DNA from: a virus
Reading direction: 5' to 3' (one strand)
Virus record (IMG/VR): IMGVR_UViG_3300045988_111952
DNA length: 41,835 nt
Part shown: one piece after another, positions 3,394 to 27,182 of the stretch
Position numbering within the stretch: the first letter of the stretch is position 1
Layout of the letters: each line of letters starts with the position of its first letter
The notes under the pieces: generated by a model
The model's input: the letters and a program-made list of their open reading frames with translations, nothing else
What the model was told of the DNA's origin: nothing
Database searches by the model: none
Program-made: the position numbers and the translations under genes

Positions 3394-3827
3394 GGGGTCA
3401 CCTCCGGGGGTTCGGGGAGCGGCATCCAGTGGGTGACATAAACAAAGTCTGGTAAATATTCCTCGCTGAACCATACGTCCAAATCATCGTCTCTCCATGC
3501 CATATAAATGTTGTGACAAACAGAATCGTAGATAAGTACGCATTCGTGTTTGGCTGGCAGTCTGTCTTTAACGCTTATCCAATGTGCCGTAGGCCGCAGA
3601 GATTCAGGGTCGATGGTAGGTGCTTTCTTGGCTTCGTCCACGATGAACTTCATCCCAGCATCGTAACCACGCGCATAGGCCGCTTTCTGTTCAGCAAGGC
3701 AATTCTTGCCGCCAGACCATATGAAATGTGCACCGTCATATTGTAAGATTTCTTTAATGTCGATCAACCGCGCCGGTTCTTTCGGCTGGCTTGCGCCCGG
3801 AATCGGGCAGCCTGTTGTTGTGCTCAT
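3390..3827 (-). CDS. DUF551-like phage protein
   Basis: C-terminal stretch WISVKDRLP...VLIY....VTHWMPLPEPP is the typical DUF551 signature. Confidence 0.75.
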   Translation of the reverse strand: MSTTTGCPIPGASQPKEPARLIDIKEILQYDGAHFIWSGGKNCLAEQKAAYARGYDAGMKFIVDEAKKAPTIDPESLRPTAHWISVKDRLPAKHECVLIYDSVCHNIYMAWRDDDLDVWFSEEYLPDFVYVTHWMPLPEPPEVTP

Positions 3828-4183
3828 TCTGATACCTCCTCGTTCCAGTAGTCGTCACGGCACCTATCACAACGGCAAGTGATACTCAAATAACCGTACT
3901 TGGCGCATCGTAATGGCTTCAAGGTTTTGTCTAATGAGCAAGGCAACAAACGAGTGATGGCGCTTAAATACGCATCCGGGAACTTCTTCAAGAACTCGCT
4001 CTGGCGAGTCTTGACTGGGTGGTCTTTTGCCCATTCCTCGACTATCTGCACAGCCTTTTCCACGTATTCGATTGTATCCGTGATACAGCAGCAATTTTCT
4101 TTGTCTTGCAATGGGCATTCAGAACAACTGTCTTTGCTTCTGCACAATCTGAATTGGGTTTTTACATATTTAACTGCGTCCAT
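3824..4183 (-). CDS. Cys-rich hypothetical protein, paralogue B
   Basis: AAGGAG RBS. Aligns with 2788..3147 (VEEWAKDHPVKTRQSEFLKKFPDA / CDRCRDDYWNEE). Confidence 0.75.
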   Translation of the reverse strand: MDAVKYVKTQFRLCRSKDSCSECPLQDKENCCCITDTIEYVEKAVQIVEEWAKDHPVKTRQSEFLKKFPDAYLSAITRLLPCSLDKTLKPLRCAKYGYLSITCRCDRCRDDYWNEEVSE

Positions 4184-15562: not shown

Positions 15563-16678
15563 ATGGCTAGAGCAAAAGCGCGGGCCGATGGGCTGATTGA
15601 ACGAACAAAAACCTATGACGGTAAGCGGGTACACTTTTACGGCAAGACCGCGAAAGAGGTCGCCGCGAAAATTGACGAGTACGAACGCCAGCGGGAAGCG
15701 GTAAAAGAGAATGGCCCGCTATTTGAGGATGTGGCCGGCGAATGGTGGGAGACCCATTTAAAAAATATCAAGGCCGGCGCAGAAAGAGCCTACAAGGGAA
15801 GCTACAAGGCAGCGCTGGAAGAGTTTAGCGGGTACCGCATGAAAGAGATAACCCCTGCTGTGGTGTCGCTGTGGGGCGAGAAATACAAGGCCGCAGGCTA
15901 TGCAGGGAAGACGGCAAGCAACGCCCGGAGCGTGTTGTCTTGTGTGTTCAAGTTTTGGTGCGTCCGGGATGGCGAAACATACAACCCGGTGGCAGTTACG
16001 GATTTGCCGCGAGGAATGAAAAAGGAGCGCCGGGAGCCGCCCACGGTGGAACAGCTGGAAACGGTCAAGGCACACCCGGAGGGGTTCGGGCTGTGTGCTT
16101 GGCTATTCATGTACACCGGCTGCAGGTTGGGCGAGGTGCTGGCGCTGCAATGGGGGGATGTGGATTTTGAGAAAAACAGAATCAGCATTTCCAAAGAAGT
16201 GGCGTGGATAAACAATCAGCCGGTTGTGCAAGCGCCGAAAACCGCAAACGGAGTGCGCGTTGTGCCGCTGTTGACGCCGCTGCGGGCCGTGCTAGAGCCG
16301 TTACGCGGGGCAGATAGTGAATATATACTCGGAGGGGAAAGACCGCTGACAGGAACGGCGTATCAGCACAGATGGGCCTACTATTGCAGAGATGTGGGCA
16401 TGGCACACTGCACCGTGCAGACGAGGAAGAACAAACATAGGGGCAAGGTGTACGATACGGCGGTAAAGGTGTGGAAAGCAGATGTCACGGCGCATCAGTT
16501 CCGGCACGAATACGCCAGCATGTTATATGCGGCGGGCATTGGCGAGCTGGAAGCGCAGCGCCTTATGGGGCACGCTGACATCACGACAACACGGCGAGTA
16601 TATACACATATCCGAGAACGCCAGCTCGATACAGCAGGAGCAGCACTGGAAAAATTTATAAACGATAAAACGATATAA
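15563..16678 (+). CDS. int: Tyrosine recombinase / phage integrase
   Basis: AGGAGG RBS. C-terminal catalytic stretch HQFRHEYASMLYAAGI...LMGHADITTTRRVYTHI (R..H-x-x-R..H..Y). Confidence 0.95.
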   Translation: MARAKARADGLIERTKTYDGKRVHFYGKTAKEVAAKIDEYERQREAVKENGPLFEDVAGEWWETHLKNIKAGAERAYKGSYKAALEEFSGYRMKEITPAVVSLWGEKYKAAGYAGKTASNARSVLSCVFKFWCVRDGETYNPVAVTDLPRGMKKERREPPTVEQLETVKAHPEGFGLCAWLFMYTGCRLGEVLALQWGDVDFEKNRISISKEVAWINNQPVVQAPKTANGVRVVPLLTPLRAVLEPLRGADSEYILGGERPLTGTAYQHRWAYYCRDVGMAHCTVQTRKNKHRGKVYDTAVKVWKADVTAHQFRHEYASMLYAAGIGELEAQRLMGHADITTTRRVYTHIRERQLDTAGAALEKFINDKTI

Positions 16679-16866: not shown

Positions 16867-16894
16867 TGGTGCAGCCAACAGGACTTGAACCTGT
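16867..16894 (-). other. attP core candidate: 3'-terminal 28 nt of a tRNA (T-arm + acceptor + CCA)
   Basis: The minus strand reads ACAGG-TTCAAGT-CCTGT-TGGCTGC-A-CCA. There is no D or anticodon arm upstream, so it is a fragment and not a gene. Confidence 0.7.
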
Positions 16895-16930
16895 ATATAT
16901 ATTCGATGTATCGTAGATAATGCGGTTTTA

Positions 16931-17542: not shown

Positions 17543-17613
17543 GTGTATTGACTCCTTTCAGATTTTGGGTTATGGGGCGGGGCTGCTTTACGCTGTGCAG
17601 CCCTGCGAGAGTT

Positions 17614-18081
17614 TCAGAGACGGACAAGTCCGTAATAGTAGTGGCGCAGGCCATCAGCGACAAAGGCCATATACAAGAGGTTGCCGGCCTCGTCTTGGCT
17701 ATAAGGCTCCGTCATCACATAGCCACGTTTCCAGTCGCTGCGCAGGTCGCGGGGCAGCTTGCAAGTCGGGGCGCGGTTTAACATCTCGTTGTAAACTTCC
17801 GCCGTGATTGCTTGGCCCTTGTGCGGGCGCAGCGTTCCGTCTCGGTGCCAGTCGGCGCGGGTGTAGGTGTCGGCAGTGGGCCGGCCGGCGGCCAGGTCGC
17901 AGTAGTGGTTGAACATCAGGCGGGCGTCCTCCGGGTCGTGGGTGTGGTAGCACTCAATTTCCCGACCGTCGGGGTACATGGCCATTACTTCGATATAGCC
18001 ATATTCGGCGGTGAGGTCTGCCGCGTCGATGATGATCTTGCGGCCCTGCCAAGTGGTTTCGGTGTGGTGTAGGGTTTTCAT
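17614..18081 (-). CDS. Hypothetical protein (155 aa)
   Basis: AAAGGAG RBS. Operon context. Confidence 0.75.
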   Translation of the reverse strand: MKTLHHTETTWQGRKIIIDAADLTAEYGYIEVMAMYPDGREIECYHTHDPEDARLMFNHYCDLAAGRPTADTYTRADWHRDGTLRPHKGQAITAEVYNEMLNRAPTCKLPRDLRSDWKRGYVMTEPYSQDEAGNLLYMAFVADGLRHYYYGLVRL

Positions 18082-19269: not shown

Positions 19270-19836
19270 ATGGCAGAAAAGAAGGCGGCGCAGGCCGTCC
19301 AGCTTGGAGAAGTGACCCGCAAGGCAATTGCAGGAGTCGAAAAGGCCAGGCAAGCAGCAGAACGCGGTGAACTCGTAGATAAGCGCGGCAACAGGATGAA
19401 CCCGGCCAGCATTGCGAATCTGCGACCAGGTACAGCAATAAAGGATATGGAACCCGAGCGGAAGCGGGAAATTCAGCAGGCAGGGCAGAAGGCCAGCGTT
19501 GAAGCCCAGAAGAAGCGCCGAACGATTAAGGAAATATATAGCGACCTGCTACAGCAACCGGACAGTGTGGGAGGGCTGGAAGATGAGGAGCTAGCACAGA
19601 CTGTCCAAGAGATGGCACAGCAGAGGGGAAAGCCGATAACTTTATATGAATCAATCGCGATTGCGATGGCGGCGAAAGCGAAGGCCGGAGACGTCAAAGC
19701 GGCGGTGTTTGTGCGGGATTCTGCCGGCGATAAACCGGCTGACCAGATGGAAATTACAGCCGAAGCGGTGACAGATGCGGATAGAGAATTGATGCAGAAT
19801 ATCCAGAAGCGGTTGCAAAAGAACGGTAACGCGTGA
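19270..19836 (+). CDS. terS: Terminase small subunit (putative)
   Basis: AAAGGAGG RBS. Basic helical N-terminus, NLRPG motif, ...AAVFVRDSAGDKP... The size and position upstream of terL are typical of Firmicute-phage TerS. Confidence 0.65.
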   Translation: MAEKKAAQAVQLGEVTRKAIAGVEKARQAAERGELVDKRGNRMNPASIANLRPGTAIKDMEPERKREIQQAGQKASVEAQKKRRTIKEIYSDLLQQPDSVGGLEDEELAQTVQEMAQQRGKPITLYESIAIAMAAKAKAGDVKAAVFVRDSAGDKPADQMEITAEAVTDADRELMQNIQKRLQKNGNA

Positions 19837-20374
19837 ATTTGCGGTTCGCTAAATAGGTATTTAGCGAAATAGTGGCCAGCAGCAGCGCGGCAGCAGGCGG
19901 AAACCGGGGCGGGAACGGTGTAGAGCAGGTGGAGCCGGACGGAGCCTGCAGAAACCGGAAACCGGGGACGGGCTGTAGATGAAGAAGGCCCGGGCGGGGG
20001 TATTTTTTTGCGGCTGTCTGCCGGGAGAGGGAAGGCGGCAGCAGGGCAGGGGGGGGACCCCCCTATAAAGGGGAGGGCGGGGCTCATAGGTAGCGCGGCC
20101 CGGTACGAATATGTCCATTCCCCCAGCGAACATAAAAATAAATTCTCTCCCATGCCACAAATATCCATGCAAAATGAAAGAAAACACGGGATTGTATCAC
20201 AAGCAAGAAGCAAGAGTACATATCCCCCCTATGAGGGAACTATACCCTGAATAGCAAAGGTTCCCTAAAAAAATAAAATTTTGAAATTTTGAGTTTCACG
20301 GTGCGGAGACAGTACCTCCTACTGCTTATGGGACTAGGGCCGTCCGCTTCAAGACCCAGCGGCCACAATACAAA

Positions 20375-20402
20375 GCGTTCTGCTACGGCAGGGCGCTTTT
20401 TT
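20375..20402 (+). terminator. Intrinsic terminator inside the non-coding region
   Basis: gcgttctgc-tacg-gcagggcgc followed by T6. Shares the 14-mer ctgctacggcaggg with the terminator at 25231. Confidence 0.65.
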
Positions 20403-20496
20403 ATTTGCAGAATAAACCCGCGAGGTGCGGGAACGGTTTGCTAAACCGATTGGCCGCCGGTGGCGGCTGGGGTTCGCGTCCTCTGTTCTGCGCCAT

Positions 20497-20578
20497 ACAC
20501 AACATGGGAGCCGGTTCGTCTAATAGGAAGGACGCGCGATACAAGGGTTCGAGTCCCTTACGGGTTGCCATGTTGTGT
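20497..20578 (+). ncRNA. tRNA-like module 1: long closing stem + D-arm + 8-nt linker + T-arm, no anticodon arm
   Basis: acacaacatgg pairs with ccatgttgtgt. D-arm cgtc-taataggaag-gacg. Linker cgcgatac. T-arm aaggg-ttcgagt-ccctt. Confidence 0.5.
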
Positions 20579-20774
20579 GTTTTATATGCTGCATAGCCAG
20601 CCGCAAACTTGGCCTGACAAGTCAATACGGCAAGGGCGCTGCGTTCCGCAAGCTACGGCGTGGCAAAGGTGCAAGACCTATGTGCAGTACCAGACGGCAG
20701 GGTCGCAACCTGTCTGTGTGAGAGTGCGCGGTATACCTCACAAATGATGACAATGGTCGTGCAAACGGCAAGCC

Positions 20775-20843
20775 GCACATGCCCTTGTAGCTCAATGGCA
20801 AGAGCCTTGGAGTGCCGGTTCAAGTCCGGCTGAGGGCATGTGC
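20775..20843 (+). ncRNA. tRNA-like module 2: long closing stem + D-arm + 8-nt linker + T-arm, no anticodon arm
   Basis: gcacatgccc pairs with gggcatgtgc. ta; D-arm gctc-aatggcaa-gagc. Linker cttggagt. T-arm gccgg-ttcaagt-ccggc. Confidence 0.55.
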
Positions 20844-21204
20844 TGGGTCGCTCCCACCGGTGAAAGCCCGGCGCAGGCAAAACGCGATAGCTAACCTAAA
20901 CGCTGTAAGCAAAGCGGCAAAGCCGATCAGGAGCGCGGCGCGATGGCAAGACGCAACGGGACTGCGAGAGCCTGAAAACTTTTGCCCGCACAGTGAAGTG
21001 CGAAAAAAACTTCAACCGCGGATAGGGGCGCGGGTATAAATACCGCCGAACACCGCAGGACTGTGCGGTATACAAATGACGCCCGCCAGCCCTGTGCGGA
21101 CAATACAGGGAATCAAAAAAAGCGTTGCGGACTTGCTCCCCGCAACGGGTGAGACCGGCATAGCAGAGACCGGTAGGGCGGGTATGGGGAATTTGGGAGT
21201 TTCT

Positions 21205-21330
21205 ATGTTGGTACTTTGTGTAATTGTGGCATACCTGTTGAAAATGCCGTTTTTGTGGGCCGCGCTTTTGCTATGTTGCGGCTTTTTGGACGACAATATT
21301 ATTTTTGCGTTTGCAAACAAGAAAAAGTAG
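21205..21330 (+). CDS. Possible small hydrophobic peptide (41 aa)
   Basis: GGGAG 5 nt before the ATG. MLVLCVIVAYLLKMPFLWAALLLCCGF is TM-like. Weak support. Confidence 0.25.
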   Translation: MLVLCVIVAYLLKMPFLWAALLLCCGFLDDNIIFAFANKKK

Positions 21331-21341
21331 GGCGGGGTGAT

Positions 21342-22835
21342 GTGTTGACGCTGGAAGAGATGCGGGAGCTTGAGCGCGAGGCGTGCAGGAAAGACCCGGT
21401 GTATTTTTGCGAAACATATTGCCACATTGAGGACAAGGACGCAGACGAGCTGATACAACCGTTTAGGCTGTGGGATGGGCAAAAGAAAGCACTGGTCGTG
21501 TTTGCCGAGAACCGGCTTGTTTGCGTGCTGAAAGCGCGCCAGTTGGGATTTACATGGCTGGCGCTGGCAGAGGTGGCGCGGCTTGTGGCGCTGAACACAG
21601 GCCGTACTGCGATTGGCTTGAGCCGGTCAGAGGACGAGGCTAAAGAGCTTGTGCGCCGCCTTGCGGTGATACTGCGGTACATGCCGGGGCTTATCCGAGA
21701 GGTGGACACGCCGGCCGGCAACGTTGCAGGCTGGACAGGGCCGGTATTCTACAAAAGCACAATGCAGGTGGTTGTGATGTGGCCGGACGGCCCGGAGAGC
21801 GTGTTTAAGGCGTTTCCGTCAAGCCCTGCTGCAGGCCGTTCGTTTACCGCTGACTTGATCGTGATAGACGAATGGGCGTTCCAGCAGTACGCGGAGGAAA
21901 TCTGGCAGGCTGCATACCCGGTTATCAACCGACCGTTCGGCGGGCGGGTCATCGGGTTGTCAACCATCAAGCTTGGCACGCTGTTTGAGGAAATCTACAC
22001 AAACCCCGGCAACGGTTTTGCAAAGCTGTTTTTGCCGTGGAGCACAGACCCGCGCCGCAGTGAGAAGTGGTACGCACAGACTGTCGCCGCGCTGGGCGAG
22101 GATAAAACGATGCAGGAGTACCCTGCAACAGAAGAAGAAGCGCTCTCCGCCCCCGGAGGGCGCTTCTTTAGTGAGCTTGACAAAGATACCCACTTGGTCG
22201 ATGCGCCGCCCACAGGGCCGCTAAGGCGCTATGTGACGATTGACTATGGCCTTGATATGCTGGCGGCGCTTTGGATTGCTGTTGACACGCAGGGCCATGC
22301 AACGGTGTACCGGGTGGACGGCGGACCGAACAAGACGATAGGTGAAGCGGCAGACTTGATTTTACGAGACTCTGCCGAGGAAGAAATAGACATGTATCTT
22401 GCACCGCCTGACCTGTGGAACCGAAGTCAGGAGAGCGGCAAGAGCCGCGCACAGCTGTTCAGCGAGGCGGGATTGCCGTTGGTGCAGAGTTCCCGAGACT
22501 TCCCGGCAGGATGCGCGGCTATGAAACAATGGCTGCGCAAGGACGAGAAAACCGGGAAAGGGTATCTGACCTTTTACAAGCCGGGCGAGCTGTGGACGTG
22601 CCTGACGAAGATACAGAAGGATGATAAAAACCCTGATGTGTATGCGAAGAACCCGCACGGCCTGACGCATTACCCGGACGCATTACGCTATTTTTGCGTT
22701 TGGTGGACAAGCCCGGCGAAAAAACCTGTGAATATACGAAAGCGGCCGTGGACGGCTGACATGTACGAGGATTACAAAAACGCAAGCCCGAAAGACCGCA
22801 AAATGCTGATTGAGAAATGGGGGAGCCCTGCATGA
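21342..22835 (+). CDS. terL: Terminase large subunit
   Basis: Walker-B-like DLIVIDEWAF. C-terminal nuclease-like half. The start is uncertain (GTG 21342, TTG 21345 or ATG 21360). The track ORF from 21216 is probably too long. Confidence 0.85.
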   Translation: MLTLEEMRELEREACRKDPVYFCETYCHIEDKDADELIQPFRLWDGQKKALVVFAENRLVCVLKARQLGFTWLALAEVARLVALNTGRTAIGLSRSEDEAKELVRRLAVILRYMPGLIREVDTPAGNVAGWTGPVFYKSTMQVVVMWPDGPESVFKAFPSSPAAGRSFTADLIVIDEWAFQQYAEEIWQAAYPVINRPFGGRVIGLSTIKLGTLFEEIYTNPGNGFAKLFLPWSTDPRRSEKWYAQTVAALGEDKTMQEYPATEEEALSAPGGRFFSELDKDTHLVDAPPTGPLRRYVTIDYGLDMLAALWIAVDTQGHATVYRVDGGPNKTIGEAADLILRDSAEEEIDMYLAPPDLWNRSQESGKSRAQLFSEAGLPLVQSSRDFPAGCAAMKQWLRKDEKTGKGYLTFYKPGELWTCLTKIQKDDKNPDVYAKNPHGLTHYPDALRYFCVWWTSPAKKPVNIRKRPWTADMYEDYKNASPKDRKMLIEKWGSPA

Positions 22836-24002: not shown

Positions 24003-25004
24003 ATGGCAGTTATTTTTAGCAAGGCAAGCGGCCTTGCCAATGATTTTTGGAATGAGTGGGCTGACCTGCTCACCATGAAAATGAAGGACACCGACAACGA
24101 GAAGAACAACGATGACGAGCTTGTCAATGCGCTGTTCAATGTCAAGAAGTCCAAGCGTTTCGGCGAGAAGATCGCGGGCATGTCCACCTTCTCCAACTTT
24201 GAGCTTGTGGATGAGGGCGCAAGCTCCCCGCTGGACGATTTCGGCGAGAGTGAGCCGAAGCTGATTGAGCACAATGAGTTCAAGAAGGCGTTCCGCATCA
24301 CCAAGACGATGATCGAGGACAACCAGTTCGATATGGCTGCTGCCCGCTCTGCCGCTAATGTGCGTGCCTACAAGCGCAGCCGTGCAGAGTTTGGCAGCAA
24401 GGCACTGACCAGCGCCGCTGCAACATTTACCTACGGCAAGAAAACCGGGCTGGATTCCACCACCGCTGACGGCAAAGCGCTGTTTGCAAAAGACCACACC
24501 GGCAAGACCGGCGTTGCCGCACAGTCGAATGTGTTCACCAACGCTTTCGGCGATGACGATGCCATGTTGAACCGCCTTGCCAACATCGGTTTCAACTTCA
24601 AAAACGCATCCGGCAACGGCATGGGCTATGTGTTCGACACGCTGATTGTGCCCTCCAACTGCTACCGCTTGATCACGCTGGGCAAGAAGATCATCAACTC
24701 TGACCAGCAGGTGGGCAGCAACTACAACGATGTGAACGTCAACAAGGGCATGTGGAAGCTGGTGGTTGACCACCATTGGCAGGCCACTGACGGAACAGAA
24801 CCCTATATCCTGATGTCCAGTCAAGCCAACAAGGATCTGCTGGGCAATGTGTTCTATGACCGCACCGCGCTGGAGACCTTCCAGAATGTGGACACCCTGA
24901 CGCAGGATCTGATCACGTCCTGCCGAGCCCGTTTCAGCTGCGGCTTTGGTGATTGGCGGCACGTTATTTTGGGCGGCGCTGCTGCTGGTACTACCCTGAC
25001 CTAA
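24003..25004 (+). CDS. Major capsid protein (putative HK97-fold)
   Basis: AAAGGAG RBS. 333 aa. Follows the scaffold gene, with composition typical of an MCP. Call based on position and size. Confidence 0.7.
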   Translation: MAVIFSKASGLANDFWNEWADLLTMKMKDTDNEKNNDDELVNALFNVKKSKRFGEKIAGMSTFSNFELVDEGASSPLDDFGESEPKLIEHNEFKKAFRITKTMIEDNQFDMAAARSAANVRAYKRSRAEFGSKALTSAAATFTYGKKTGLDSTTADGKALFAKDHTGKTGVAAQSNVFTNAFGDDDAMLNRLANIGFNFKNASGNGMGYVFDTLIVPSNCYRLITLGKKIINSDQQVGSNYNDVNVNKGMWKLVVDHHWQATDGTEPYILMSSQANKDLLGNVFYDRTALETFQNVDTLTQDLITSCRARFSCGFGDWRHVILGGAAAGTTLT

Positions 25005-25298: not shown

Positions 25299-27182
25299 AT
25301 GAAGAAAGACGATAAGCAGACAAAAGACCTTGAAAAATGGCAGGGCAAGCTATCCAACGCGAAAGCTGCATACAGTGACACGCTGGAAAAGATGCGCAAG
25401 CGTGAGGCCATGTACTACGGCAGCCACGAGATACAGGGTGCCAAAAAGAACGCCACGAATGTGCGCAATATCATCTATGAGCTGATTGAAAGTCAGGTGG
25501 ATTCCAGCTACCCGATGCCGAAGGTCACAGCCATCCATGCGGAAGACCGGGACTTAGCGCGAAAGACCGAAAACATGCTGCGCAATCAGGCACGGCGGAT
25601 GCGGTTTATTGAACTGAATGACCGAAGCGAACGAACAGTGCCGGTGCAGGGCGCGGACTTTTTCCATGTGGAGTGGAACCCGGTTGCGGGGTATCACTGC
25701 ACGCTGGGCGATGTTGAAGTAGAGATGCGCCACCCACGGCAGGTCATTCCGCAGCCGGGTGTGTACCGCATTGAGGATATGGATTATATCTTTGTGCAGG
25801 TCTCAAAGAGCAAGGATTCGCTGGAAGCGCGGTACGGCATTACTATTGAGACCGACACAGAGGACGCGCCGGACGCGCGCGGGGGCGATGACAGCACCCA
25901 CACAGGCGTTGTGACGCAGAACATTGTCTATTACAAGCACGACAAGGGCACAGTAGGCATGTTTAGCTGGGTAGGGTGTCAGGTACTTGAAGATTTCCCC
26001 GATTATTATGCGCGCACGGCAGAGGTTTGCACGAAATGCGGACGGCGGCGCGTGGGGGATGTATGTGTTTGCGGGAACAAGAAGTTCAAAGAACAGCCGG
26101 TGCAGACCCTTACGCTGACACAGGATGTAGTGCTTAGCAGCGGTGAGGTGCTGCCTGCACAGATGATGGGCGAGGATGTGCCCATTGTGAACCCGGACGG
26201 CAGTGTACAGCTTGACAACGAGAGCGGCGAGGTCATTATGATGCCGGGCGAGATGCAGGCCAACGAGATACCGGCCTACAAACCGCATGGTTTCCCGATT
26301 GTGGAGCGGATAAACATTGCGGCATCGGACAAGTTTTTGGGCGTGTCGGATGTAGATATCATCGCTGACCAGCAGCAGGCTATCAACAAATACGGCACAA
26401 AGATTCAGGAAAAGCTGCTGAAAGGCGGCAGTTGGGTAGTGCTGCCGGAGGGCGTAAACGCGGAGCTGAACGATAACGAGCTGAAAATTTTGCGCGTGGA
26501 CAACCCGAGCCAGAAAGCCATGATCGATGTTATCAATGTGCAGCCCAATGTGCAGAACGACCAGAACATGCTGGAAATGAATTACACTTGGGCGAAATCC
26601 ACTTTGGGCATTACGGACGCATTCCAAGGCAAGTACGATTCTTCCGCTACATCGGGCAGTGCGAAGCAGTTCAGCGCGAACCAGAGCGCAGGCCGTTTGC
26701 AGAGCAAGCGCGAAATGAAGAACAACGCCTATGCGAAGCTGTACCGCATGATGTTTGAGTTTTTGCTGGCGTATGCCGATGAGCCGTACCCGATGACCGA
26801 GACAGACACGGACGGTGAACAGCAGTTCGGGCATTTTGACAGGATGGAGTTTTTGAAGCGGGACGCAGCCGGGGAATTGTACTGGAACGATGAATTTATC
26901 ATTGAGGTAGACCCGGCAAGTAACCTTGCAAGCAACCGCGAGCGGCTGTGGGACATGGTCGATTTGAAGTATCAGGCGGGCGGTTTTGGCAACATTACCG
27001 AGCCTATAAGCCAGTACCGGCTGTGGACTTACCTGAAAGAGACCGGATTCCCGTATGCAGCCACAATGCAGAAATCCATCAAAGAGGAGATGGACAGACA
27101 GGAAGCTATGCAGCAGGGGGTGATTGCAAATGACATGGCAAGAAATCAAGTTGGCAACCTTGCAGAAAATGTTCAGCTCTGA
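25299..27182 (+). CDS. Portal protein (putative), with an internal CxxC...CxC insertion
   Basis: 627 aa, GGAG RBS. Lies next to the adaptor and capsid genes. N-terminal region ...YYGSHEI...NVRNIIYELIESQVD... is portal-like. Function from context. Confidence 0.6.
   Translation: MKKDDKQTKDLEKWQGKLSNAKAAYSDTLEKMRKREAMYYGSHEIQGAKKNATNVRNIIYELIESQVDSSYPMPKVTAIHAEDRDLARKTENMLRNQARRMRFIELNDRSERTVPVQGADFFHVEWNPVAGYHCTLGDVEVEMRHPRQVIPQPGVYRIEDMDYIFVQVSKSKDSLEARYGITIETDTEDAPDARGGDDSTHTGVVTQNIVYYKHDKGTVGMFSWVGCQVLEDFPDYYARTAEVCTKCGRRRVGDVCVCGNKKFKEQPVQTLTLTQDVVLSSGEVLPAQMMGEDVPIVNPDGSVQLDNESGEVIMMPGEMQANEIPAYKPHGFPIVERINIAASDKFLGVSDVDIIADQQQAINKYGTKIQEKLLKGGSWVVLPEGVNAELNDNELKILRVDNPSQKAMIDVINVQPNVQNDQNMLEMNYTWAKSTLGITDAFQGKYDSSATSGSAKQFSANQSAGRLQSKREMKNNAYAKLYRMMFEFLLAYADEPYPMTETDTDGEQQFGHFDRMEFLKRDAAGELYWNDEFIIEVDPASNLASNRERLWDMVDLKYQAGGFGNITEPISQYRLWTYLKETGFPYAATMQKSIKEEMDRQEAMQQGVIANDMARNQVGNLAENVQL

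What the first reader, a model, noticed from the sequence alone, without database searches (positions are those of the whole stretch)
20497..20843. Two tRNA-like 'elbow' modules that both lack the anticodon arm and are closed by long stems
Module 2 (20775..20843) reads: gcacatgccc-ttg | ta | D-arm gctc-aatggcaa-gagc | 8-nt linker cttggagt | T-arm gccgg-TTCAAGT-ccggc | tga-gggcatgtgc.

Module 1 (20497..20578) has the same plan: closing stem acacaacatgg/ccatgttgtgt, an imperfect inner stem gagccgg/acgggtt, tt, D-arm cgtc-taataggaag-gacg (with the GG of a D-loop), 8-nt linker cgcgatac, and T-arm aaggg-TTCGAGT-ccctt.

Both modules keep the D-loop/T-loop elements that form the tRNA elbow. Both replace the roughly 22 nt of anticodon arm plus variable loop with exactly 8 nt. 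Both extend the acceptor-like helix to well over 7 bp without a free CCA end. Two independent copies with the same unusual architecture argue against random decay of tRNA genes.

Analogues include the tRNA-like domains of bacterial Y-RNA-like (YrlA) RNAs, tmRNA TLDs and mascRNA-type processing signals. Possible roles are RNase P/Z punctuation of a long ncRNA, recruitment of elbow-binding factors, or decoys for tRNA-targeting defence or anticodon nucleases.
Basis: seen in the sequence. Interest (0 to 1): 0.72.

Follow-up and report, generated by a model that had tools for sequence, protein, structure and literature searches.

The report
Phage tRNA mimics lacking the anticodon arm
Two short tRNA look-alikes in a gut phage keep the parts of a tRNA that processing enzymes recognise but have no anticodon arm, and they belong to a large, mostly phage-borne class that I found described nowhere and whose function is untested.

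Summary
Both modules are real.

**Module 2 (core 20781-20838)**
- It matches Rfam's tRNA model at 41.9 bits, with the anticodon arm replaced by 3 nt.
- It recurs in 42 related phage contigs. Its stem substitutions keep pairing, and the spacer just 3' of it is hypervariable.

**Module 1 (core 20509-20567)**
- It is a divergent member of the same architecture (27.4 bits against a model built without it).
- I found 12 copies, always directly after an 8/4-type tRNA-Ser(GCU).
- Its core is unchanged even where that tRNA differs at 23 of 89 positions.

**The wider class**
- An architecture pattern recovered 111 distinct examples from many phyla and viral contigs.
- All have perfect 7-bp acceptor stems, covarying T-stems and a D-loop GG. 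The 15-48 tertiary pair covaries (p = 3e-24).
- They lie on the same strand as neighbouring tRNAs, rarely encode CCA, sit among phage genes, and are often 0.5-1 kb upstream of terminase.
- One follows a GOLLD RNA by 4 nt.

**What does not hold**
- The long closing stems are not a class feature.
- Module 2's stem is specific to this window.

**Likely role (inferred, about 0.4)**
- They cannot decode. Most likely they are RNase P / RNase Z cleavage signals that cut up a long noncoding leader and release a tRNA-shaped RNA of about 58 nt.
- A role as a decoy is not excluded.

The parts
20372..20399 (+). Terminator-like hairpin followed by the T-tract TTTTTTATTT, immediately 5' of the tRNA-Ser cassette
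   Evidence: Terminator scan. In relatives without the cassette (L040, L106, L007) this hairpin and T-tract abut GCTGCATAGCC directly.
20407..20495 (+). tRNA-Ser(GCU) with an 8-bp acceptor stem, a 4-bp T-stem and an encoded CCA (20493-20495)
   Evidence: ARAGORN. The fold shows the 8/4 arrangement. The best Rfam model is tRNA-Sec at 41.6 bits, below its gathering score of 47. The 8/4 tRNA-Ser type is described in phages and Clostridia in PMC5389517.
20497..20507 (+). Module 1 closing stem, 5' strand (ACACAACATGG)
   Evidence: Pairs with 20568-20578. Kept in all 12 copies. The few changes are transitions that keep a wobble pair, and the outermost pair is not kept.
20509..20567 (+). Module 1 core: acceptor-like stem (6/7), D-arm, 8-9 nt linker and T-arm; no anticodon arm
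   Evidence: R1 covariance model 27.4 bits, E about 2e-8, full-length match. The core differs at 0-1 of 59 positions in 8 relatives, including L353, where the adjacent tRNA-Ser differs at 23/89.
20568..20578 (+). Module 1 closing stem, 3' strand (CCATGTTGTGT)
20579..20590 (+). G + TTTTATAT + GC. This is a T-tract directly after the closing stem, and it is the 3' copy of the direct repeat TTTTAT(T/A)TGC that flanks the tRNA-Ser + module 1 cassette (5' copy at 20399-20408).
   Evidence: Junction comparison with L040, L106 and L007.
20591..20774 (+). Conserved structured spacer between the modules, containing hairpins with compensatory changes (for example N4-TGCAAA-N4' just 5' of module 2)
   Evidence: Local RNAalifold on 25 homologues: 9 of 27 pairs show compensatory change. 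Hairpin variants GTCG/CGGC, ACTG/CAGT and ACCG/CGGT.
20775..20780 (+). 5' leader GCACAT of the module 2 slot. It is shared with relatives that carry a full tRNA-Thr in this slot. In this window it pairs with 20838-20843.
20781..20838 (+). Module 2 core: 7-bp acceptor stem, U8 A9, D-arm, 8-nt linker (3 nt + a 5-nt variable-loop equivalent), T-arm, discriminator A; no anticodon arm and no CCA
   Evidence: Rfam tRNA 41.9 bits with the anticodon arm deleted. R1 58.4 bits, though this sequence was in the model's seed alignment. Found in 42 related contigs with pair-preserving changes. The core is the least variable segment.
20839..20843 (+). Variable 3' spacer (TGTGC here). With A20838 it completes a 6-bp extension of the acceptor helix in this window only.
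   Evidence: All 6 columns (+1 to +6) vary among 30 same-context copies. Variants include ACATGC, AAAGGC, AAAGTC, ACGTGC and GCATGC.
20844..21122 (+). Conserved structured noncoding segment beginning TGGGTCGCTCCCA. It always follows the tRNA or tRNA-like slot.
   Evidence: BLAST mosaic. RNAalifold on 19 homologues: 6 compensatory pairs. Weak similarity to group-II-D1D4-4, E 0.07, below threshold.
21123..21186 (+). D12-methyl RNA motif (RF02950)
   Evidence: 86.4 bits against a gathering score of 57.
21357..22835 (+). Terminase large subunit gene, the first large late gene downstream of the noncoding region
   Evidence: Weak Pfam Terminase_6N match, 20.3 bits against a cut-off of 22. Capsid and portal genes follow.

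Best explanation
Both modules are RNA-level tRNA mimics of one architecture. It consists of a 7-bp acceptor stem, U8, a D-arm with G18G19, a linker of 8-9 nt (3-4 nt replacing nucleotides 26-43, plus a 5-nt variable-loop equivalent) and a canonical T-arm. They keep the acceptor/T coaxial helix, the D-loop/T-loop elbow and, in module 2, the 15-48 tertiary pair. They have no anticodon arm, so they cannot decode.

They belong to a widespread, mainly phage-borne class. Its members lie on the same strand as phage tRNA genes and usually lack an encoded CCA.

Most likely mechanism (inferred, not shown):
- The elements are transcribed as part of the long noncoding leader and tRNA-cassette region upstream of the terminase operon.
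- They are recognised by the enzymes that measure from elbow to acceptor end. RNase P cuts at the 5' side. RNase Z cuts after the discriminator, which is the route used for CCA-less precursors.
- They therefore act as punctuation. They free the 3' end of whatever lies upstream (tRNA-Ser for module 1, a structured RNA for module 2).
- They also free the 5' end of what lies downstream (the structured segment, the D12-methyl RNA and the late mRNA).
- The by-product is a tRNA-shaped RNA of about 58 nt.

Module 1 is an atypical derivative. Its conserved 10-11 bp stalk, followed by GUUUUAUAU, may in addition act as the terminator-like 3' end of the inserted tRNA-Ser cassette.
For: Shown:
- Architecture and significance in the window.
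- 111 distinct examples, all with 7/7 acceptor pairing at the exact register (chance about 0.1% each).
- The three T-stem pairs not fixed by the search pattern covary; T-stem cells are 96.6% paired.
- The 15-48 pair is G-C in 72, A-U in 32 and other in 7 (Fisher p = 3e-24). GG is in the D-loop in 111/111. G46 is present in 80/111. The linker is 8-9 nt in 84/111.
- G-U pairs make the structure strand-specific, so it acts as RNA.
- Neighbouring tRNAs are on the same strand in 136/137 cases, often 2-65 nt away.
- CCA is encoded in 18/110 armless elements against 79/132 tRNAs in the same loci. In this window tRNA-Ser encodes CCA and both modules do not.
- Module 2's core is the least variable stretch, and the 5-6 nt after its discriminator is the most variable, as for a tRNA trailer.
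- Module 1's core is unchanged while the adjacent tRNA diverges by 26%.
- Context is phage: 9 of 10 flanking proteins match phage families, and four of the seven flanking ORFs lying downstream of the element are terminases. Cultured L. brevis phages Lb, LBR48 and 3-SAC12 carry them.
- One element starts 4 nt after the 3' end of a GOLLD RNA in a Streptococcus porci prophage, a MALAT1/mascRNA-like arrangement.

Established knowledge:
- RNase P, RNase Z (for CCA-less precursors) and the CCA-adding enzyme recognise the elbow and the acceptor/T helix (PMC4810234).
- RNase P cleaves phage and mRNA substrates that are not tRNAs (PMC11143913).
Against: - There are no expression or cleavage data of any kind.
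- No sigma-70-type promoter was found in 19400-21500.
- A terminator-like hairpin sits just upstream of the tRNA-Ser cassette.
- In this window both modules have their acceptor helix extended (6 extra bp for module 2, 10-11 bp beyond an internal G-G mismatch for module 1). This buries the -1/+1 junction and the 3' trailer and should hinder RNase P and RNase Z.
- For module 1 the extension is kept in all 12 copies. That fits an uncleaved 'elbow on a stalk' or a terminator better than punctuation.
- Conservation of the D-loop, position 46 and the 15-48 pair exceeds what a mere cleavage signal would seem to need. This hints that the released RNA, or binding of some factor, matters.
- Module 1 has A15 and C48, which is not a standard 15-48 pair, and a 6/7 acceptor stem.
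Confidence: 0.4

Rival explanations
1. The product, not the cut, is the point. The matured tRNA-shaped RNA of about 58 nt acts in trans as a decoy or sponge for a host or defence protein that recognises the tRNA body (elbow, acceptor/T helix, 3' end). It cannot be consumed by translation.
For: The tertiary core is preserved far beyond a minimal RNase P/Z substrate: 15-48 covariation, GG in 111/111, G46 in 80/111. The class is concentrated in phages. Several copies can occur per phage: two here, and two to three 57-58 nt matches to the Rfam tRNA model in phages Lb and 3-SAC12. Immune effectors that target tRNA away from the anticodon exist, for example a type V CRISPR effector with collateral activity on tRNA; I saw only that paper's title and abstract (PMC13594972).
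Against: No conserved partner gene was seen next to the elements. Acceptor stems and discriminators are highly diverse, so there is no single sequence-specific target. Nothing shows that the RNA accumulates.
Confidence: 0.22
2. Uncleaved structural elements. The tRNA-like fold sits on a stalk within a longer RNA. For module 1 the stalk plus GUUUUAUAU works as an intrinsic-terminator-like 3' end, or as a protective 3' structure, for the tRNA-Ser cassette. The elbow may dock to another RNA or protein.
For: The module 1 stalk is kept in all 12 copies and is followed directly by G + TTTTATAT. The same tract follows the canonical terminator hairpin at 20372-20399. The cassette is an insertion between direct repeats of that tract. 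Flanking segments are themselves structured.
Against: The stalk is not G+C-rich, and the 'loop' is a 59-nt three-way junction, unlike known intrinsic terminators. Long stalks are at chance level in the class. Module 2's stalk is specific to this window. Divergence among module 1 copies is too low to give compensatory changes.
Confidence: 0.15
3. They are aminoacylated, non-decoding carriers. After CCA addition they would be charged by a synthetase that does not need the anticodon and used outside the ribosome, or used to titrate a synthetase or EF-Tu.
For: The acceptor stem, discriminator and T-arm are intact. A minority encode CCA (18/110). Module 2 has the G1-C72 and C2-G71 pairs typical of tRNA-Thr acceptors (my own knowledge of ThrRS identity elements).
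Against: No shared identity element exists. G3-U70 occurs in only 2 of 47 aligned members, and acceptor stems are very diverse. CCA is depleted relative to neighbouring tRNAs. ThrRS also needs the anticodon (my own knowledge).
Confidence: 0.07
4. They are non-functional tRNA pseudogenes that lost the anticodon arm by deletion and persist because the phages are closely related.
For: The same slot holds an intact tRNA-Thr in some relatives. GenBank annotates one class member as a pseudo 'tRNA-OTHER'. Module 1 occurs only in a narrow lineage.
Against: 111 distinct sequences across phyla all keep a perfect 7-bp acceptor stem, a paired T-stem and the covarying 15-48 tertiary pair. Substitutions within the module 2 lineage keep pairing: GCCGG/CCGGC to GCTGG/CCAGT, and U-G to U-A. 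The whole acceptor is replaced yet still paired in L177. The core is more conserved than its flanks, and more than the adjacent functional tRNA.
Confidence: 0.04

Closest known systems
Canonical tRNA (Rfam RF00005)
   Same: 7-bp acceptor stem, U8, D-arm with G18G19, variable-loop equivalent with the 15-48 pair, T-arm with a TTCRANT loop, and a discriminator. Located in phage tRNA clusters on the same strand. Module 2 passes Rfam's gathering score.
   Different: The whole anticodon arm and nucleotide 26 are replaced by 3-4 nt, so decoding is impossible. ARAGORN does not call either module. CCA is usually not encoded, even where neighbouring tRNAs encode it.
mascRNA / MEN-beta tRNA-like elements at the 3' end of MALAT1 and NEAT1 (Rfam RF01684), plant mitochondrial t-elements, and MHV68 TMER tRNA-like units (the last two from my own knowledge)
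   Same: tRNA-like folds embedded in longer transcripts. Their known role is to be cut by RNase P and RNase Z, defining the ends of the flanking RNAs and releasing a small tRNA-like RNA that is not used in translation. The GOLLD + armless element pair in S. porci and the layout of this window are arranged the same way.
   Different: Those elements are eukaryotic or organellar and unrelated in sequence. The RF01684 match to module 1 is only 16.9 bits (gathering score 42.5), and there is none for module 2. mascRNA keeps a reduced anticodon-type arm. Processing is demonstrated for them and not for this class.
Anticodon-arm-deleted pre-tRNA model substrates and 3/4-type external guide sequences used in RNase P, PRORP and RNase Z biochemistry
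   Same: The same truncation. Removing the anticodon arm leaves the determinants used by the end-processing enzymes (partly from my own knowledge). The library papers found use substrates lacking the anticodon domain.
   Different: Those are laboratory constructs. Here the truncation is natural, conserved and widespread.
YrlA-type bacterial Y RNA tRNA-like domain
   Same: A natural bacterial tRNA mimic that has an elbow and does not decode.
   Different: YrlA is permuted (my own knowledge of the published structure; the bioRxiv record 10.1101/312249 was listed). Its acceptor-like stem is closed by a loop, and its ends lie in the Ro-binding stem where the anticodon stem would be. Here the ends are at the acceptor stem. 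No Y-RNA model matched.
tmRNA tRNA-like domain
   Same: It lacks an anticodon and is processed by RNase P.
   Different: tmRNA has no true D-stem, carries the G3-U70 alanine identity and encloses an mRNA-like domain (my own knowledge). Module 2 has C3-G70 and a 4-bp D-stem. ARAGORN found no tmRNA.
'tRNA-OTHER' / pseudo-tRNA annotations in phage GenBank records (for example Lactobacillus phage 3-SAC12, A3SAC12_tRNA01)
   Same: The same kind of element, of 57-58 nt, picked up by an annotation pipeline.
   Different: It is only a label. It is flagged as a pseudogene and not recognised as a class. In phages Lb and LBR48 the same element is not annotated at all.

Membership tests
Canonical tRNA (RF00005) | 7-bp acceptor stem closing the molecule | tested here: met
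   Module 2: 7/7 pairs, two of them G-U. Module 1: 6/7 with one G-G mismatch.
Canonical tRNA (RF00005) | D-arm with G18G19, and a T-arm with a TTCRANY-type loop that together form the elbow | tested here: met
   Module 2: GCTC-AATGGCAA-GAGC and GCCGG-TTCAAGT-CCGGC. Module 1: GTCT-AATAGGAA-GGAC and AAGGG-TTCGAGT-CCCTT.
Canonical tRNA (RF00005) | Anticodon arm (5-bp stem and 7-nt loop carrying the anticodon) | tested here: not met
   The Rfam alignment shows 18 model positions replaced by 3 nt in module 2. Only 8-9 nt lie between the D-stem and T-stem in both modules. ARAGORN calls neither.
Canonical tRNA (RF00005) | Score at or above Rfam's gathering threshold (29 bits) | tested here: inconclusive
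   Module 2 scores 41.9 bits and passes. Module 1 gives no RF00005 match up to E = 5.
Canonical tRNA (RF00005) | 3' CCA end and aminoacylation | not testable with these tools
   CCA is not encoded after either module. Post-transcriptional addition and charging cannot be assessed from sequence.
Anticodon-arm-less phage tRNA-like class (defined here, model R1) | Acceptor 7 bp + U8 N9 + 4-bp D-stem with a GG loop + linker of 6-10 nt (mode 8-9) + 5-bp T-stem with a T-loop, matched end to end | tested here: met
   R1 scores module 2 at 58.4 bits (this sequence was one of the 47 in the seed alignment) and module 1 at 27.4 bits. Both are full-length matches without a large insertion.
Anticodon-arm-less phage tRNA-like class (defined here, model R1) | Covarying 15-48 tertiary pair (G15-C48 or A15-U48) | tested here: inconclusive
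   Module 2 has A15 and U48, which fits. In the model's register module 1 has A15 and C48, which does not fit. The class overall has 104 of 111 standard pairs.
Anticodon-arm-less phage tRNA-like class (defined here, model R1) | Phage or prophage context, on the same strand as tRNA genes, usually without an encoded CCA | tested here: met
   The window carries integrase, terminase, capsid and portal genes. tRNA-Ser is on the same strand, 1 nt upstream of module 1's closing stem and 13 nt upstream of its core. Neither module encodes CCA.
mascRNA / menRNA (RF01684) | Match to the family model at or above 42.5 bits | tested here: not met
   Module 1 scores 16.9 bits, E 3.9. Module 2 gives no match.
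mascRNA / menRNA (RF01684) | Cleavage by RNase P and RNase Z that forms the 3' end of an upstream long noncoding RNA | not testable with these tools
   Only the arrangement can be seen: structured noncoding RNA on both sides of module 2, and a GOLLD RNA ending 4 nt before an armless element in L146.
YrlA / bacterial Y RNA | Permuted tRNA-like domain (acceptor closed by a loop, ends in a Ro-binding stem) and a match to Y-RNA models | tested here: not met
   The order here is acceptor 5' strand, D-arm, T-arm, acceptor 3' strand. No Y-RNA family matched up to E = 5 in 19600-21400.
tmRNA | tRNA-like domain with G3-U70 and no D-stem, enclosing a tag-peptide reading frame | tested here: not met
   ARAGORN's tmRNA search found none. 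Module 2 has C3-G70 and a 4-bp D-stem.
Intrinsic terminator (considered for the module 1 stalk) | Stable hairpin directly followed by a U-tract | tested here: inconclusive
   The 11-bp stalk ends 1 nt before TTTTATAT. However, the stem is not G+C-rich and encloses a 59-nt junction. The scan, which allows loops of 3-8 nt, does not list it.

The most novel reading that the evidence does not exclude
Phages of many bacterial phyla encode a dedicated family of anticodon-less 'elbow' tRNAs. Host RNase P, RNase Z and the CCA-adding enzyme would mature them into stable RNAs of about 60 nt. These would then act in trans, for example as decoys that protect the real tRNA pool from defence nucleases or transferases that recognise the tRNA body or 3' end, or as hijackers of tRNA-binding host factors. 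That would make them a new class of phage counter-defence or host-takeover RNA, not mere processing signals.
Probability: 0.2. Interest if true: 0.85.

Novelty: new variant of a known kind. Interest (0 to 1): 0.62.

Why it matters
- If the class is functional, phage 'tRNA genes' include a sizeable hidden fraction that cannot take part in decoding. That changes how phage tRNA content should be counted and interpreted.
- It would be a bacterial and phage counterpart of MALAT1/mascRNA-type tRNA punctuation.
- It offers a concrete hypothesis for how large phage noncoding RNAs, such as GOLLD and the D12-methyl-containing leader here, get their ends.
- It gives annotators a simple model (R1) for elements now missed or labelled as pseudogenes.
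- The class is directly testable, because cultured Lactobacillus brevis phages (Lb, LBR48, 3-SAC12) carry typical members.

Tried and rejected
- **BLAST of the whole 1.5-kb noncoding region against cultured phage genomes:** no match.
- **BLAST of a Microbacterium armless element against cultured phages:** it hit only the T-arm region of ordinary mycobacteriophage tRNA-Trp genes and was uninformative.
- **GOLLD or ROOL as the identity of the surrounding RNA:** rejected. No match even at E up to 5.
- **Group II intron fragment at 20854-20961:** only 20.3 bits against a gathering score of 49. Not pursued.
- **Module 2 as a simple deletion fusion of two neighbouring tRNAs** (5' part of tRNA-Thr, 3' part of the 83-86 nt tRNA-like seen in L012): this was suggested by BLAST breakpoints at 20798-20805 and 20813. 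I rejected it because the two acceptor strands of module 2 pair perfectly with each other, differ from both putative parents, and are conserved across 42 contigs.
- **DNA-level readings (att or pac site):** rejected for the modules. G-U pairs make the structure specific to one strand, and covariation follows RNA pairing rules. A separate T-arm fragment next to the integrase is the better attP candidate.
- **Literature:** eight full-text searches and the papers read found no description of an anticodon-arm-less tRNA-like class in phages. The library holds open-access papers only, so this is not proof of absence.
- **Looking for diverged module 1 copies:** viral and metagenome collections gave only near-identical copies and one chance match, L350. 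The stalk therefore could not be tested by covariation.
Full report
**1. What is in the window**

The window is a temperate phage.
- It carries a tyrosine-type integrase (15563-16678), a terminase large subunit (21357-22835, weak Pfam match), a capsid protein (24003-25004) and a portal protein (25299-27182, weak match).
- Between the ORF that ends at 19836 and the small ORF and terminase lies about 1.35 kb without convincing coding sequence.
- ARAGORN finds one gene there, tRNA-Ser(GCT) at 20407-20495, with an encoded CCA.
- At gathering thresholds Rfam finds a D12-methyl RNA (21123-21186, 86.4 bits) and a 'tRNA' of only 58 nt at 20781-20838 (41.9 bits). It also finds a RAGATH-5 motif elsewhere in the window.
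- The Rfam alignment shows that the 58-nt match spans the full tRNA model, but 18 positions of the anticodon arm are replaced by 3 nt.

**2.

| Feature | Module 2 | Module 1 |
|---|---|---|
| Acceptor stem | GCCCTTG/TGAGGGC (7/7) | AGCCGGT/ACGGGTT (6/7) |
| Nucleotides 8-9 | UA | UC |
| D-arm | GCTC-AATGGCAA-GAGC | GTCT-AATAGGAA-GGAC, or CGTC/GACG one register over |
| Linker | CTTGGAGT (8 nt) | 8-9 nt |
| T-arm | GCCGG-TTCAAGT-CCGGC | AAGGG-TTCGAGT-CCCTT |
| After the acceptor | discriminator A | G |
| Closing stem | GCACAT/ATGTGC extends the helix by 6 bp | 11-bp stem, 20497-20507 / 20568-20578 |

- Both modules fold far better than shuffled sequences (z = -4.4 and -4.9; 0 of 200 shuffles fold as well).
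- Module 1 is not found by Rfam's tRNA model. Its only match is an insignificant one to mascRNA (16.9 bits, E 3.9).
- I built covariance model R1 from 46 armless elements of other organisms plus the window's own module 2, without module 1. It matches module 1 end to end at 27.4 bits (E about 2e-8). It matches module 2 at 58.4 bits, a score that is partly by construction.

**3. Relatives of this phage**

Using the D12-methyl motif as an anchor, I fetched 119 related viral loci. BLAST shows that the noncoding region is a mosaic of exchangeable blocks. Breakpoints lie at the edges of the tRNA and tRNA-like units.

*Module 2*
- It occurs in 42 of the 120 sequences (119 loci plus the window), in at least three different 5' contexts.
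- Its substitutions keep pairing:
  - T-stem GCCGG/CCGGC becomes GCTGG/CCAGT in L013.
  - U6-G67 and G7-U66 become U-A and G-C in L059, L066, L022 and L013.
- In two MAG homologues with the same D-loop and linker type (L177, L120), much or all of the acceptor stem is different but still fully paired.
- Among 30 copies in the same context, the 57-nt core has 6 weakly variable columns. All 6 columns of the spacer after the acceptor stem vary. That is the pattern expected at the boundary of a processed tRNA-like unit.
The 3' flank reads ACATGC in most copies, and AAAGGC, AAAGTC, ACGTGC or GCATGC in others. Only this window has ATGTGC.
- In other relatives the same slot, with the same GCACAT leader, holds one of the following:
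  - a normal tRNA-Thr(UGU);
  - a 69-nt tRNA-like with a 3-4 bp anticodon-type stem;
  - a 65-nt form with a vestigial arm;
  - odd 73-nt and 83-86-nt tRNA-likes.

*Module 1*
- It is rare. I found 12 real copies across the window and the viral and metagenome collections. All are in human-gut phage contigs, and all follow tRNA-Ser-CCA directly.
- tRNA-Ser plus module 1 form a cassette inserted between direct repeats TTTTAT(T/A)TGC. Relatives such as L040, L106 and L007 have the empty site. Other relatives have tRNA-Ser without module 1.
- The module 1 core differs at 0-1 of 59 positions in eight relatives. This includes L353, where the adjacent tRNA-Ser differs at 23/89 and the flanks at 56/107 and 20/114.
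- That pattern means either strong constraint or recent transfer of the module as a unit.
- The stalk is kept in all copies. The only changes are transitions to wobble pairs, so covariation cannot prove it.

**4. A much larger class**

I searched with a pattern that a normal tRNA cannot satisfy: TAGCTCA, 5-8 nt, GAGC, 9-13 nt, GGTTCRANTCC. This specifies a D-arm, a short linker and a T-arm.
- 61 of 105 genomic matches, and 76 of 106 matches in the newly fetched viral loci, have a perfect 7/7 acceptor pairing at exactly the tRNA register. Chance is about 0.1% each.
- This gives 111 distinct sequences, from Firmicutes, Actinobacteria, Proteobacteria, Bacteroidetes, Planctomycetes and others.

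On a 47-sequence alignment:
- All 7 acceptor pairs show changes on both sides. Pairing there was required for selection, but the diversity of pair types was not.
- The three T-stem pairs not fixed by the pattern do so too.
- T-stem cells are 96.6% paired.

Tertiary features:
- The 15-48 tertiary pair is G-C in 72, A-U in 32 and other in 7 (Fisher p = 3e-24).
- GG is in the D-loop in 111/111, and G is at the position equivalent to 46 in 80/111.
- The linker is 8-9 nt in 84/111.
- These RNAs therefore keep the tertiary core of tRNA, not only its stems.

The D-stem itself was fixed by the pattern. Independent support for it is limited to module 1 (GUCU/GGAC) and a 65-nt relative (GCAC/GUGC).

Extension of the helix beyond 7 bp follows the chance distribution. 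The observed counts for 0 to 5 extra pairs are 56, 38, 10, 2, 2 and 2; the expected counts are 69, 26, 10, 4, 1 and 0.5. U is the commonest nucleotide at -1.

**5. Context of the class**

- Neighbouring ARAGORN-called tRNAs are on the same strand in 136/137 cases, often only 2-65 nt away.
- CCA is encoded in 18/110 armless elements, against 79/132 tRNAs in the same loci. In 19 of the 23 loci whose tRNAs mostly encode CCA, the armless element lacks it.
- Nine of ten flanking proteins from unrelated loci match phage families. Seven of the ten are ORFs downstream of the element, and four of those seven are terminase subunits, 0.6-1 kb away on the same strand, as in this window.
- In Microbacterium prophages the element sits between a structural gene followed by a hairpin and the next gene.
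- In a Streptococcus porci prophage a GOLLD RNA (3426-3814) is followed 4 nt later by an armless element (3818-3876), and a terminase gene follows.
- Cultured Lactobacillus brevis phages Lb, LBR48 and 3-SAC12 carry typical members upstream of their packaging genes or next to tRNAs.
  - In Lb and LBR48 the element is not annotated.
  - In 3-SAC12 it is labelled 'tRNA-OTHER' and flagged as a pseudogene.
  - Lb has two and 3-SAC12 three matches of 57-58 nt to the Rfam tRNA model.
- A Gemmiger MAG carries the same module 2 with the D12-methyl motif, which suggests an Oscillospiraceae host.

**6. How it most likely works**

*Shown*
- The elements are under RNA-level structural selection.
- They retain everything that the end-processing machinery reads.
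- They cannot decode.
- They sit in co-oriented tRNA clusters or noncoding leaders of phages.
- They tend to lack CCA.

*Established knowledge*
- RNase P, RNase Z (for CCA-less precursors) and the CCA-adding enzyme recognise the elbow and measure to the acceptor end (PMC4810234).
- RNase P cleaves non-tRNA phage RNAs and mRNAs (PMC11143913).

*Inference*
- The elements serve as cleavage signals that separate the RNAs on either side and release a small tRNA-shaped RNA.
- For module 1 this would create the trailer end of tRNA-Ser.
- For module 2 it would separate two structured noncoding segments and define the 5' end of the D12-methyl RNA and late leader.

*Weaknesses*
- There are no expression data.
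- No promoter was found.
- In this window both acceptor helices are closed by extra pairs, which should hinder cleavage.
- For module 1 the conserved stalk followed by GUUUUAUAU suggests an additional or alternative terminator-like or protective role.
- The degree of tertiary-core conservation leaves room for a trans-acting function of the released RNA, such as a decoy for proteins that bind the tRNA body. I rank that second.
- A pseudogene explanation is strongly disfavoured by sections 3 and 4.

**7. Comparison with known families**

- The elements are tRNA derivatives that fail the defining anticodon-arm test for tRNA.
- They work most like mascRNA-type elements and mitochondrial t-elements. 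They are not members of those families (RF01684 scores 16.9 bits against a gathering score of 42.5).
- The YrlA and tmRNA analogies fail on topology, and no model matches.
- Rfam 15 has no family of its own for them. Only RF00005 matches.
- Eight full-text searches found no description of such a class. This includes a review of non-canonical natural tRNAs (PMC7609411) and the paper on 8/4 tRNAs (PMC5389517).
- The search covers open-access papers only.

**8. Verdict**

The architecture is real and selected. The long stems are local peculiarities. The function is untested.
- I rate it a new variant of a known kind: natural tRNA-like processing or mimic elements.
- Interest is moderate to high, because the class is widespread, phage-linked, unannotated and experimentally tractable.

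Noticed in passing
window 20407-20495 (+): The tRNA-Ser(GCU) has an 8-bp acceptor stem, a 4-bp T-stem, a long D-stem and an encoded CCA. Its best Rfam model is tRNA-Sec (41.6 bits, below the gathering score of 47). This matches the (8/4) tRNA-Ser type reported from phages and Clostridia (PMC5389517).
   Followed up: partly
window 20399-20408 and 20581-20590: tRNA-Ser plus module 1 form a cassette of about 180 nt flanked by direct repeats TTTTAT(T/A)TGC. Relatives L040, L106 and L007 show the empty site. The same TTTTATAT|GC junction precedes module 2 in other relatives (L007, L109, L068, L093, L022, L013). This suggests a preferred insertion or recombination point for tRNA-type cargo.
   Followed up: partly
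window 21123-21186 (+): A strong D12-methyl RNA motif (86.4 bits) sits directly upstream of a small hydrophobic ORF (about 21207-21330) and the terminase gene, not upstream of a D12-class methyltransferase. The motif anchored more than 119 related viral contigs.
   Followed up: partly
window 17566-17618 (-): A RAGATH-5 RNA match (52.1 bits, gathering score 50). The Oscillibacter prophage locus L121, which carries an armless tRNA-like, also has two RAGATH-5 and two twister-sister matches.
   Followed up: no
window 16871-16900 (-): An isolated T-arm plus acceptor 3' strand (ACAGGTTCAAGTCCTGT TGGCTGC) lies just downstream of the integrase gene (15563-16678). It is a likely attP core derived from the 3' end of a host tRNA.
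   Followed up: no
window 20591-20774 and 20844-21122 (+): Both segments flanking module 2 are conserved and contain hairpins with compensatory changes. 20854-20961 has a sub-threshold resemblance to a group II intron D1-D4 model (20.3 bits, E 0.07). The hairpin GGG-TCGCT-CCC always follows the tRNA slot and is duplicated in L115.
   Followed up: partly
window 20049-20063: A G8-A-C6 near-palindrome (GGGGGGGGACCCCCC) lies in the G-rich first part of the noncoding region (19880-20100). It may be a packaging or cos-related feature.
   Followed up: no
L013 11646-11714, L046 5136-5204, L102; L023 8188-8252; L065 7115-7188; L012 5592-5675: The module 2 slot in related phages holds a graded series of non-canonical tRNA-likes. 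There are 69-nt forms with a covarying 3-4 bp anticodon-type stem, a 65-nt form with a vestigial arm and D-stem GCAC/GTGC, and a 73-nt form with a non-standard anticodon loop. There is also an 83-86 nt form that ARAGORN calls 'tRNA-His(atg)'.
   Followed up: partly
L146 3426-3876 (Streptococcus porci): A GOLLD RNA (263 bits) is followed 4 nt later by an armless tRNA-like. A terminase large subunit gene lies about 0.6 kb downstream. This is a possible 3'-end processing signal for GOLLD.
   Followed up: partly
L165, L189, L196, L238 and about 12 other Bacteroidetes loci (Cytophagales, Flammeovirgaceae, Chitinophagaceae): The D-arm / AACAGNAAAC linker / T-arm unit occurs here without flanking acceptor pairing. 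Instead a T-arm, a covarying hairpin and the next D-arm follow one another in a chain. This may be a permuted or tandem tRNA-like arrangement, or tandem tRNAs that share acceptor sequences. It is unexplained.
   Followed up: no
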